Of a stretch of DNA of 64,000 bases, positions 6,396 to 8,097 are shown one piece after another. Within the stretch, counting starts at the first letter, position 1. Each line of letters starts with the position of its first letter. Source of the stretch: Escherichia coli O127:H6 str. E2348/69. Lineage in GTDB: Bacteria; Pseudomonadota; Gammaproteobacteria; Enterobacterales; Enterobacteriaceae. The stretch lies in NCBI RefSeq assembly GCF_000026545.1, contig NC_011601.1, one strand, 5' to 3'. Made by a program: the position numbers.

Positions 6396-8097
6396 ATGAA
6401 CAGTGTGCATTTTGGCAATAAATATGAAACCAACTGTCATGTCGGTTTTTTTAAAGGCCGAAGGTGGTAAACCTTCGGCCTTAGCTACGTTTCCTCAGTT
6501 ATTCAATAAATTGACGGATCAGTTCTAGCAGCGCGATTAGCGCCTTAAGAACGATGAGAACTTTATCGAGAAAAGTTTTCATCCGTTGCTCCCTTAAGGG
6601 AGAAAGACAATCACAGCTTACCCTTACGTTGCCTGTAACTATGATTTTCTTCATGTGCTAGATGAGGACTGCCTCTCTCCAAATTAGAGCACCAGAATCA
6701 GCACCACCTGTATCCTGACCAGGACTTAAAAGTACTTTTCCGCACTGCGGTAATCCCTTGAGGCAGTATCACTACTAGCGTCGGGATTGTATCGCCAACA
6801 TAGCTGTTGTGTAAGTTCACAGAGATATTGCAATTGCCTCCGGATAAGTAAGGGGAGATTGCACTATGCAAATGCAGCATCTGATGGTTGGCTATCCTAA
6901 GTACTACCAAACGGCCGATTATGCGTTGAGGCTTTCAGTGATGGCTGATATAGCAACAATGAGAATGAAGGCTCTGCACTTCTGGGATAAACACGGTATT
7001 TCTGCAGCTTCTGAAGCCTTTGGCGTGTCCTGCCGCACGCTTTACTGGTGGCGTCAGTTACTGAACAAGGAAGGACCTGAGGGGCTAATCCCGCACAGTA
7101 AGGCACCTCTGGTGCGACGAAAAAAACACTGGCATCCCGATGTGCTGAAAGAGATTCGACGCCTCAGGACAGAGCTGCCGAACCTCGGTAAAGAGCAGAT
7201 TTTTGTTCGCCTGAAGCCCTGGTGCGAACAGCGCTATCTGGCCTGTCCGAGTGTTTCCACCATCGGCAGAATGATCGCTGCCGCACATGATAAAATGCGG
7301 ATGATACCTGTGCGTCTGGGATCGCGGGGGAAGGCACTGCTTGTCAAAAAGCGGTCTGCCAAACCCCGCAGGCCAAAGCACTACCGCCCGGTAAAGACAG
7401 GTGAGCTCATTGGGATGGACGCCATTGAGCTCAGAATGGGCGAACTGCGTCGCTATGTCATCACCATGATCGACGAATGCAGCAATTACGCGCTGGCGCT
7501 GGCTGTGCCGTCACTCAACAGTGATATCGTCAATCACTTCTTCAGCCGCGCAGCCCGGTTGTTCCCGGTCGGTATCAGCCAGATAATCACAGATAACGGA
7601 AAAGAGTTCCTGGGAAACTTCGACAAAACGCTGCAGGAAGCCGCTATCAAACACCTCTGGACCTATCCCTACACGCCAAAAATGAACGCTATCTGTGAAC
7701 GTTTTAACCGGACGTTAAGAGAGCAGTTTATTGAATTTAATGAGATTTTACTCTTTGAAGATCTGGCGCTATTTAACCAGAAGCTGGCGGAATATCTGGT
7801 GCTGTATAACAGCAAAAGACCCCACAAGGCGCTCGCACTAATGACGCCCGTGGAATATATTTTAAAAGAGAATAAAAATTGCAATATGTGGTGGACCCAT
7901 ACAGCTGTTTGAATATGTAGGCATCCTGACTTATAATTCACTTGCTAGATGAGGACTGTTTCATTTCTGCCCGGAACCACCAAGTCTTGGGCGGAAAAAA
8001 TAAAAAAACCGACTGTCATGTCGGTTTTTTTATATCTGTATTCTGGTGCAACCATTCTGTTCTCACGACAATCGCCGTTTCAGAATACCGCCCATCA

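What the first reader, a model, noticed from the sequence alone, without database searches (positions are those of the whole stretch)
6456..6602. Unannotated 27-codon ORF encoding a DinQ-like type I toxin peptide
The minus strand at 6499..6582 encodes MKTFLDKVLIVLKALIALLELIRQFIE, preceded by an AGGGAG Shine-Dalgarno that sits inside a perfect 14-bp palindrome (ctcccttaagggag), and followed by a 9-bp-stem hairpin. It shares the core DK.IIVL.ALIALLELIR with DinQ (recalled as MIDKAIIVLGALIALLELIRFLLQLLN), the LexA-controlled inner-membrane toxin of the dinQ-agrB locus, which lies elsewhere on the chromosome. This is therefore a candidate second DinQ-family toxin, sitting in a strain-variable patch next to a transposase gene. 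I found no LexA box and no obvious antisense RNA partner, so its regulation is unknown.
Basis: partly seen in the sequence, partly recalled or inferred. Interest (0 to 1): 0.75.

Follow-up and report, generated by a model that had tools for sequence, protein, structure and literature searches.

The report
Second DinQ-family toxin–antitoxin locus, IS-split
The small ORF is a real second copy of the DinQ-type membrane toxin gene, but the family is already described, RefSeq already annotates the gene, and its "missing" antisense RNA partner sits 1.4 kb away behind an inserted IS element.

Summary
Window 6499..6582 (-) encodes MKTFLDKVLIVLKALIALLELIRQFIE. Its Shine-Dalgarno sequence lies in the palindrome CTCCCTTAAGGGAG, and a 3' hairpin follows the ORF. 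The window is E. coli E2348/69.

The ORF is a true DinQ-family paralogue. It scores 40.9 bits against NCBIfam DinQ (cut-off 30). The mRNA is about 70% identical in DNA to K-12 dinQ from the ORF to about +49. The leader has the same structure, with covariation.

It is not new. RefSeq names it "dinQ" and the exact peptide occurs on at least 1000 public contigs. Kristiansen et al. 2016 described dinQ-like (dql) genes that coexist with dinQ. The module is in 1331 of 5426 complete E. coli genomes.

An AgrB-family sRNA (Rfam 53.6 bits, gathering score 40) lies at 7945..8033 (+). Its 5' end pairs with the toxin leader over 18 contiguous base pairs. A 1094-bp IS481-family element inserted exactly in the shared -35 of the two divergent promoters and separated them.

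No LexA box is present, so the RefSeq name "damage-inducible" is probably a misnomer for this copy. About 180 carriers have a 108-bp deletion that inactivates the toxin.

Verdict: an ordinary, already known locus of low interest.

The parts
6499..6582 (-). Toxin ORF (dql; annotated 'dinQ' in RefSeq), 27 aa, MKTFLDKVLIVLKALIALLELIRQFIE. It is hydrophobic (GRAVY 1.23).
   Evidence: The SD and start codon are conserved in all 8 aligned family leaders, which supports the 27-aa start over the 51-aa start.
6589..6602 (-). SD-sequestering hairpin (elements 3:4 of the dinQ model).
   Evidence: It aligns with the dinQ SD hairpin U167-G187. The pairs are kept with compensatory changes in alignment A1, columns 191-205. 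The SD is closed in the full-length MFE fold, with P(unpaired) 0.01.
6583..6779 (-). 197-nt 5' UTR. The predicted transcription start is G6779 (GCUAG...). Nt 14-20 (window 6760..6766, CUGCCUC) form element 1, the 5' lock.
   Evidence: The geometry is the same as K-12 dinQ: -10 hexamer, 6 nt, then G(+1), with GTTAG matching GCTAG. The 5' end pairs with the sRNA target in the MFE fold and in the consensus structure. The start site is inferred, not mapped.
6658..6691 (-). Target of the Agr-like sRNA (mRNA nt 89-122; contains element 2). The core 18-bp duplex is at 6658..6675.
   Evidence: Pairing is 21 WC + 6 GU of 34, with a longest run of 18. Duplex dG is -54.7 kcal/mol, z = -7.4 against shuffles. 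The target sits at the same distance from the start codon as AgrB's target in dinQ (G88-A119).
6786..6815 (-). Toxin promoter: -10 TACAAT (6786..6791). The -35 is now supplied by the IS left end (CTTACA, 6810..6815, 18-bp spacer).
   Evidence: scores it 9/12. The IS-free allele has only TATTCA as -35 and fails the same scan. It is a consensus match only.
6454..6482 (-). 3' hairpin of the toxin mRNA (11-bp stem), homologous to the dinQ 3' hairpin with compensatory changes.
6427..6453 (.). Left copy of a ~27-bp hairpin repeat (AAACCAACTGTCATGTCGGTTTTTTTA). It is a direct repeat of the AgrL terminator and bounds the 478-bp module. It may also act as a terminator for the toxin mRNA.
6809..7902 (+). 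IS481-family insertion sequence, 1094 bp. The transposase ORF is 6866..7912. The imperfect inverted repeats are GTGTAAGTTCAC...ATATTGCAATT. The 7-bp target duplication AGCTGTT is at 6802..6808 and 7903..7909.
   Evidence: There are four identical copies in E2348/69.
7909..7937 (+). Promoter of the Agr-like sRNA, TTGAAT-17-TATAAT (10/12). It is intact after the IS insertion because the duplicated T restores the -35.
7945..8033 (+). Agr-like antisense sRNA ('AgrL'), 89 nt: a single-stranded/weakly paired 5' antisense end, a central stem and an intrinsic terminator. It is not annotated in RefSeq.
   Evidence: Rfam RF02891 AgrB scores 53.6 bits against a gathering score of 40, E=1.3e-7. It is 72-73% identical to K-12 agrA and agrB. 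It folds at -33.9 kcal/mol, z = -4.88. No ncRNA feature is listed.

Best explanation
This is a chromosomal type I toxin-antitoxin module of the DinQ/AgrB family, a dinQ-like ('dql') locus. It is distinct from canonical dinQ and coexists with it. The 27-aa hydrophobic peptide is the toxin. By homology with DinQ and DqlB it would insert in the inner membrane and depolarise it.

Its mRNA starts near 6779 from a sigma-70 promoter that has no LexA operator. The primary transcript is predicted to be translationally inert for two reasons. Removing roughly the first 45-50 nt would let element 2 pair with element 3 and open the SD.

The 89-nt sRNA at 7945..8033 comes from a near-consensus constitutive promoter. 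Its 5' 18-23 nt pair with element 2. That pairing would restore the closed SD hairpin and, by analogy with AgrB, create an RNase III substrate.

In IS-free strains the two genes are divergent, with transcription starts about 65 bp apart and overlapping -35 hexamers. In the E2348/69 lineage an IS481-family element inserted exactly in that shared -35. The sRNA gene moved 1.1 kb away but keeps an intact promoter, and the toxin promoter received a new IS-derived -35. Because the sRNA acts in trans, the module should still be regulated.

Shown here: homology, anatomy, complementarity, the absence of a LexA box, the IS boundaries and the distribution. Inferred: the transcription start, the processing step, toxicity, the RNase III step and present-day activity.
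For: - Peptide: NCBIfam DinQ 40.9 bits against a cut-off of 30; BLASTP 79% identity over 19 aa.
- mRNA: colinear with dinQ from about +49 to the 3' hairpin.
- Leader structure: an 8-sequence leader alignment gives the 1:2 duplex, the internal stem-loops and the SD hairpin, with 14 doubly compensated pairs.
- Folding: MFE folds show 1:2 plus a closed SD in the full-length RNA, and 2:3 pairing after 5' truncation. SD P(unpaired) rises from 0.01 to 0.17.
- sRNA: Rfam AgrB 53.6 bits against a gathering score of 40; strong promoter; stable fold, z = -4.88.
- Pairing: duplex dG -54.7 kcal/mol, z = -7.4, with an 18-bp run. The functional AgrB:dinQ pair has a run of 23 and the non-functional AgrA:dinQ pair a run of 9.
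- Co-variation: sRNA 5' ends and their targets co-vary across six independent loci, at a conserved distance from the start codon.
- Same peptide subtype with an adjacent divergent Agr sRNA in two Serratia genomes.
- Published mechanism for dinQ/agrB (PMC3567139, PMC5066626) and experimental validation of DqlB/agrB (PMC12365149, PMC12317039).
- IS boundaries and target duplication.
Against: - No expression or toxicity data exist for this locus. No paper in the library deals with it.
- sRNA-target complementarity is the weakest of the systems compared: 21 WC + 6 GU + 7 mismatches of 34, and the distal half has decayed.
- The toxin promoter in the IS-free allele fails a 9/12 consensus scan.
- About 180 of about 1315 carriers have a 108-bp deletion that removes the SD, the start codon and the target. 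The toxin is therefore dispensable and the locus is decaying in part of the population.
- The MFE-based SD-accessibility test barely discriminates the K-12 positive control (0.13 against 0.19), so it carries little weight.
Confidence: 0.8

Rival explanations
1. The locus is a decaying or silent relic. It descends from a dinQ-family module, but the toxin is no longer meaningfully expressed, or the sRNA no longer controls it. The locus persists by hitch-hiking and recent lateral spread rather than by function.
For: The toxin -35 is weak in the IS-free allele. The distal half of the sRNA-target duplex has decayed. About 14% of carriers have the 108-bp toxin-start deletion, about 16 genomes have a precise excision between the 27-bp repeats, and 5 records have an IS in the promoter. 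The near-identity of the module between divergent Escherichia lineages (1/513 differences against 2.8-5.5% in the flanks) also covers non-functional spacers. It therefore reflects recent transfer, not selection.
Against: The ORF, SD, start codon, leader elements, sRNA promoter (10/12) and terminator are all intact in 1135 genomes. All four sRNA substitutions within the 18-bp run are C-to-U changes that keep G-U pairs. The SD hairpin shows compensatory changes rather than decay.
Confidence: 0.15
2. It is SOS-inducible like canonical dinQ, as the RefSeq product name 'damage-inducible type I toxin DinQ' implies.
For: There is homology to dinQ, and the NCBIfam equivalog model passes its cut-off.
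Against: There is no CTG-N10-CAG box anywhere in the module. The best heterology index is 14.66, within the range of shuffled sequence (mean minimum 16.0, 5th percentile 12.1). The same matrix gives 4.16 for the real dinQ box (published 4.83). After the IS insertion the best site on the toxin side scores at least 17.3. The Serratia and Pantoea relatives also lack promoter LexA boxes.
Confidence: 0.04
3. The translated product is the 51-aa ORF (6499..6654), as annotated in some genomes (WP_001308457.1), not the 27-aa peptide.
For: The ORF is open from ATG 6654, and PGAP calls the 51-aa form in PCN033 and many other genomes.
Against: There is no SD before ATG 6654. That ATG lies inside the sRNA target and leader structure. 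The upstream extension is not conserved in the Serratia, Pantoea or plasmid homologues, whereas GGAG-N6-8-[AG]TG is invariant. For DinQ, experiments showed that only the 27-aa form is made (PMC3567139).
Confidence: 0.01

Closest known systems
dinQ-agrA/agrB locus of E. coli K-12 (arsR-gor intergenic region; Weel-Sneve 2013, Kristiansen 2016)
   Same: A 27-aa single-helix hydrophobic peptide with the core DK..IVL.ALIALLELIR. A leader of about 195 nt with elements 1-4 and an SD hairpin. A divergent trans-acting Agr sRNA whose 5' end pairs 75-110 nt upstream of the start codon. A nested longer ORF. A homologous 3' hairpin.
   Different: The chromosomal site is different (ybbP-mnmH). There is no LexA operator. 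It has one sRNA rather than two. The start codon is ATG with a stronger SD, not GUG. The peptide has 3 extra N-terminal residues and a shorter ...RQFIE tail (62% identity overall). The sRNA duplex is shorter and more wobble-rich. In this strain it is split by an IS.
dql (dinQ-like) genes, dqlA/dqlB (Kristiansen et al. 2016, PMC5066626); DqlB-agrB of pOXA-48 and IncX3 plasmids (PMC12365149, PMC12317039)
   Same: The family definition fits: a dinQ-like 5' UTR plus signature residues, found in chromosomes and plasmids of Enterobacteriaceae and sometimes together with dinQ. The C-terminal ELIRQFI[D/E] is shared with DqlB. The Agr antitoxin pairs with the leader.
   Different: It is not DqlB: 24.5 bits against a cut-off of 35, and DqlB is 31 aa with an inserted RAVAALAN segment. 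It is chromosomal, not a plasmid addiction module. It forms a third peptide clade with the Serratia loci (81-85% identity). That clade is probably the authors' DqlA, but their figure and supplement could not be read to confirm it.
tisB-istR1, zorO-orzO and shoB-ohsC type I systems
   Same: Small membrane toxins with long, structured and processed 5' UTRs. Divergent, non-overlapping trans-acting sRNA antitoxins with 18-21-nt pairing.
   Different: There is no sequence homology to them. TisB uses a ribosome standby site and is LexA-controlled.

Membership tests
DinQ/AgrB type I toxin-antitoxin family (dinQ + dql) | Small hydrophobic single-helix peptide with the DinQ signature residues | tested here: met
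   NF041472 scores 40.9 bits against a cut-off of 30, E=1.8e-10. BLASTP gives 15/19 identities. GRAVY is 1.23 and the maximum 15-aa window is 2.73.
DinQ/AgrB type I toxin-antitoxin family (dinQ + dql) | Long 5' UTR homologous to dinQ, with mutually exclusive elements 1:2 / 2:3 / 3:4 and an SD hairpin | tested here: met
   70% DNA identity from the ORF to about +49. The consensus structure has 14 doubly compensated pairs. MFE folds switch from 1:2 plus 3:4 to 2:3 on 5' truncation (qualitative only).
DinQ/AgrB type I toxin-antitoxin family (dinQ + dql) | Divergently encoded, non-overlapping Agr sRNA whose 5' end is complementary to the leader | tested here: met
   Rfam AgrB scores 53.6 bits against a gathering score of 40 at 7945..8033. 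The pairing has an 18-bp run, dG -54.7, z = -7.4. The gene is adjacent in IS-free alleles and displaced 1.1 kb here.
DinQ/AgrB type I toxin-antitoxin family (dinQ + dql) | Toxicity on overexpression, inner-membrane localisation and rescue by the sRNA | not testable with these tools
   This needs experiments. It has been shown for DinQ and DqlB only.
Canonical dinQ (SOS regulon member; NCBIfam 'equivalog' name) | LexA operator overlapping the promoter | tested here: not met
   There is no CTG-N10-CAG box. The best heterology index is 14.66, equal to the shuffled background. The control dinQ box scores 4.16.
Canonical dinQ (SOS regulon member; NCBIfam 'equivalog' name) | Orthologous position (gor-arsR) and the DinQ-proper peptide clade | tested here: not met
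   It lies between ybbP and mnmH. Canonical dinQ is present separately in the same genome. It is 62% identical to DinQ, against 85-93% identity within the DinQ clade.
DqlB (NF041473) | Score above the curated cut-off; 31-aa peptide with the RAVAALAN insert | tested here: not met
   It scores 24.5 bits against a cut-off of 35. The alignment shows the insert is absent.
DqlA (Kristiansen 2016) | Amino-acid pattern that separates dqlA from dqlB in their Fig. 3B | not testable with these tools
   The figure and supplements are not held. Assignment to DqlA is inferred by exclusion.

The most novel reading that the evidence does not exclude
The IS481 insertion in the shared -35 of the toxin and antitoxin promoters may have rewired the module in the EPEC O127:H6 lineage. 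It uncouples two promoters that normally compete and gives the toxin a better IS-derived -35. In addition, the sRNA may cross-regulate the canonical dinQ mRNA of the same cell: the predicted AgrL:dinQ(E2348) duplex is -44.7 kcal/mol, against -46.0 for its own target. On that reading the two paralogous systems form one network, and the roughly 180 'toxin-deleted' alleles are orphan antitoxins kept to dampen dinQ.
Probability: 0.2. Interest if true: 0.45.

Novelty: already known. Interest (0 to 1): 0.2.

Why it matters
The finding matters little as a discovery. The gene family was published in 2016, its plasmid branch was validated in 2025, and RefSeq annotates this very ORF.

What this analysis adds is curation-level detail:
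1. The cognate Agr-type sRNA is present but unannotated. It is separated from its toxin by an IS, so distance-limited type I TA finders would miss the pair.
2. The RefSeq name 'damage-inducible ... DinQ' is probably wrong for this paralogue, which has no LexA box and belongs to a separate peptide clade.
3. The locus gives a compact natural series of decay states for a chromosomal type I TA module: intact, toxin-start deletion, precise excision and IS-split. That series could be used to ask whether such modules are maintained by selection or by lateral spread.

Tried and rejected
- tblastn of the 27-aa peptide against plasmids returned nothing, probably because the query is short and the low-complexity filter is on. 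DNA 'distant' mode was used instead.
Only six Enterobacterales loci were usable after ORF filtering.
- MFE and partition-function SD accessibility was meant as a test of the processing switch. The K-12 positive control is barely discriminated (0.13 against 0.19), so the result is used only qualitatively.
- I could not confirm that this clade is 'DqlA': no supplements or figures are held for PMC5066626.
- A literature search for the peptide string and for dinQ+EPEC found nothing specific. One search failed on a syntax error.
- The junction site CTGTGAACTTACACAA (6822, -) was considered as a LexA box created by the IS. It was rejected because its heterology index is 17.9, worse than the shuffled background.
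- A remnant of the module in K-12 was considered. There is none; the rhsD island replaces the whole spacer.

Full report
**What is in the sequence**

- A 27-codon ORF at 6499..6582 encodes MKTFLDKVLIVLKALIALLELIRQFIE.
- AAGGGAG lies 6 nt upstream of the ATG, inside the perfect palindrome CTCCCTTAAGGGAG (6589..6602).
- A stable hairpin follows the ORF at 6454..6482 (11-bp stem).
- The ORF is the 3' part of a longer 51-codon frame that opens at 6654.

The window is E. coli E2348/69 (EPEC O127:H6), with a 100% match to NZ_CP059840.2. The neighbours are ybbP upstream, an IS481-family transposase, and mnmH.

**Is the DinQ resemblance real?**

Yes.
- The peptide passes NCBI's curated DinQ model (NF041472: 40.9 bits against a cut-off of 30, E=1.8e-10). 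It fails the DqlB model (24.5 bits against a cut-off of 35).
- BLASTP against DinQ gives 15/19 identities.
- The homology extends to the RNA. blastn of the locus against the K-12 gor-arsR spacer gives 70% identity over 218 nt, covering the ORF and leader.
- A global alignment of the two mRNAs is colinear from dinQ +49 to the 3' hairpin.
- I validated the coordinate mapping on K-12. With +1 placed 194 nt upstream of the GUG, the published landmarks come out correctly: GGAG at 184-187, the AgrB target at G88-A119, and the LexA box over +1.

**Is it new?**

No.
- RefSeq annotates this ORF as 'dinQ: damage-inducible type I toxin DinQ' in E2348/69 (WP_349808740.1, 27 aa). Other strains carry it in the 51-aa form.
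- The exact peptide is recorded on at least 1000 public contigs under that name.
- Kristiansen et al. 2016 (PMC5066626) defined the dql (dinQ-like) family, with dqlA and dqlB groups, in chromosomes and plasmids of Enterobacteriaceae. They noted strains that carry dql together with dinQ.
- The plasmid DqlB-agrB system was validated experimentally in 2025.
- E2348/69 does carry canonical dinQ as well, next to gorA.
- I found no paper on this particular ybbP-mnmH locus.

Rfam places an AgrB-family RNA at 7945..8033 (+), on the far side of the transposase gene (53.6 bits against a gathering score of 40).
- It is 72-73% identical to K-12 agrA and agrB.
- It has a near-consensus promoter, TTGAAT-17-TATAAT, at 7909..7937.
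- It has a terminator and a stable fold (z = -4.88).
- RefSeq does not annotate it.

Its 5' end pairs with the toxin leader at 6658..6691.
- Fourteen Watson-Crick pairs extend to an 18-bp run through G-U pairs. After one mismatch there are a few more pairs.
- The duplex energy is -54.7 kcal/mol, z = -7.4 against shuffled sRNA.
- For scale, the functional AgrB:dinQ pair has a run of 23 and -66.6 kcal/mol. The AgrA:dinQ pair, reported to be non-functional, has a longest run of 9.

I compared sRNA 5' ends with their targets in six independent loci: K-12, E2348/69 canonical, this locus, two Serratia and one Pantoea. The sequences differ between systems but match within each system. The target always lies at the same distance from the start codon. 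That co-variation supports antisense control across the family, including here. This pair is nevertheless the least complementary of those compared.

**Leader architecture**

An alignment of eight dinQ/dql leaders, chromosomal and plasmid, gives a consensus with the long-range 1:2 duplex, the internal stem-loops and the SD hairpin. Fourteen pairs are kept through changes on both sides.
- In MFE folds, the full-length RNA pairs its 5' end with the sRNA target and closes the SD, with P(unpaired) 0.01.
- RNAs truncated at the 5' end pair element 2 with element 3 instead, and SD P(unpaired) rises to about 0.17.
- The same calculation hardly separates the K-12 +1 and +44 RNAs, so I treat it as qualitative only.
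- The SD and start codon of the 27-aa form are invariant across the family. The upstream extension is not conserved.

**Regulation**

There is no LexA box.
- No CTG-N10-CAG site exists in the module.
- I built a heterology-index matrix from LexA sites recalled from the literature and calibrated it on dinQ (4.16 against the published 4.83). The best site in the module scores 14.66, no better than shuffled sequence.
- The Serratia and Pantoea relatives also lack promoter LexA boxes.
- SOS control is therefore a feature of the arsR-gor dinQ gene, not of the family. The product name 'damage-inducible' is probably wrong for this paralogue.

**The IS and the natural history of the site**

Comparison with an IS-free allele (PCN033, L002) shows a 1094-bp IS481-family element at 6809..7902, with a 7-bp target duplication AGCTGTT and imperfect inverted repeats. 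E2348/69 has four identical copies.

In the IS-free allele the toxin and sRNA transcription starts are about 65 bp apart and divergent. Their -35 hexamers overlap (TTGAAT on one strand, TATTCA on the other). The IS inserted exactly there.
- The sRNA promoter is restored by the duplication.
- The toxin -10 (TACAAT) now faces an IS-derived -35 (CTTACA, 9/12). The original promoter fails the same scan.
- Only 5 records, essentially the O127:H6 lineage, have this insertion.

The module is chromosomal, single-copy and at least 99% identical in 1331 of 5426 complete E. coli genomes.
- 1135 genomes keep the start region. About 180 have a 108-bp deletion between GATGAGAACT and GATGAGGACT that removes the SD, the start codon and the sRNA target.
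- The 478-bp module is bounded by direct copies of a ~27-bp hairpin. About 16 genomes have an 'empty' 234-bp spacer with a single copy.
- K-12 has the rhsD island instead, with no trace of the module.
- Escherichia sp. E1V33 has the module at the same site. It shows 1 difference in 513 nt, whereas the flanking genes differ by 2.8-5.5% overall and 6.7-14.2% at third codon positions. This indicates recent lateral spread by recombination rather than long vertical inheritance.

**Classification**

The peptides fall into three clades:
- DinQ proper.
- The 31-aa plasmid DqlB type.
- A third clade made of this peptide and the Serratia ones (81-85% identity to each other, 62% to each of the other two clades).

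The third clade is probably the authors' DqlA, but I could not check that. About 1850 plasmids carry distant DNA relatives annotated dqlB or dinQ.

**Verdict**

The claims that the ORF is unannotated and has no antisense partner are wrong. The locus is an ordinary, already described kind of type I toxin-antitoxin module. Its strain-specific IS insertion and probably misleading product name deserve a curator's note rather than a follow-up programme.

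Noticed in passing
L007 30141..30811 (E2348/69 canonical arsC-dinQ-gorA region, NZ_CP059840.2 ~292.1-292.8 kb); outside the window: The canonical locus of E2348/69 has a single Agr sRNA (Rfam 91.5 bits). Its 5' end is identical to K-12 agrA, not agrB, for 25 nt. The E2348/69 dinQ target has co-varied to fit it (29 WC + 2 GU, run of 23). K-12's supposedly non-functional AgrA therefore looks like the cognate antitoxin of the B2-type dinQ allele. 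arsR and arsB are absent there.
   Followed up: partly
window 6427..6453 and 8006..8032; empty-site allele L005 5856..6089: The 478-bp toxin-sRNA module is flanked by direct copies of a ~27-bp hairpin (26/27 identical). Rare genomes (~16) have one copy and no module. This is consistent with precise excision, or Campbell-type gain, by recombination between the repeats.
   Followed up: partly
L004 (NZ_OZ392446.1); corresponds to window 6562..6669: A recurrent 108-bp deletion between the microhomologies GATGAGAACT and GATGAGGACT removes the SD, the start codon and the sRNA target but keeps the sRNA gene. It is present in about 180 of about 1315 carriers. These may be orphan antitoxin loci.
   Followed up: partly
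window 7910..7912 and 7909..7914: The IS481-family transposase ORF (6866..7912) runs past the IS end (7902). It uses a TGA stop supplied by the flanking DNA, and that stop overlaps the -35 (TTGAAT) of the sRNA promoter. Read-through from the IS would enter the sRNA gene.
   Followed up: no
window 6319..6401: REP-type elements lie just after ybbP. Rfam ES036/CssrF scores 40.3 bits (gathering score 37.6) at 6319..6361 (-). A truncated naRNA4 match lies at 6365..6401 (+) and is below its gathering score.
   Followed up: no
L002 vs L049 (E. coli PCN033 vs Escherichia sp. E1V33): The module is almost identical (1/513) between lineages whose flanking genes differ by 3-5%. This implies recent horizontal exchange of this small locus within the genus.
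   Followed up: partly
window 7945..8033 vs L007 dinQ leader: Predicted cross-pairing of the ybbP-mnmH sRNA with the canonical dinQ mRNA of the same strain (-44.7 kcal/mol, runs of 7 and 14 bp) is nearly as good as with its own target (-46.0). The reverse cross (canonical Agr against dql) is poor, with a longest run of 8.
   Followed up: partly
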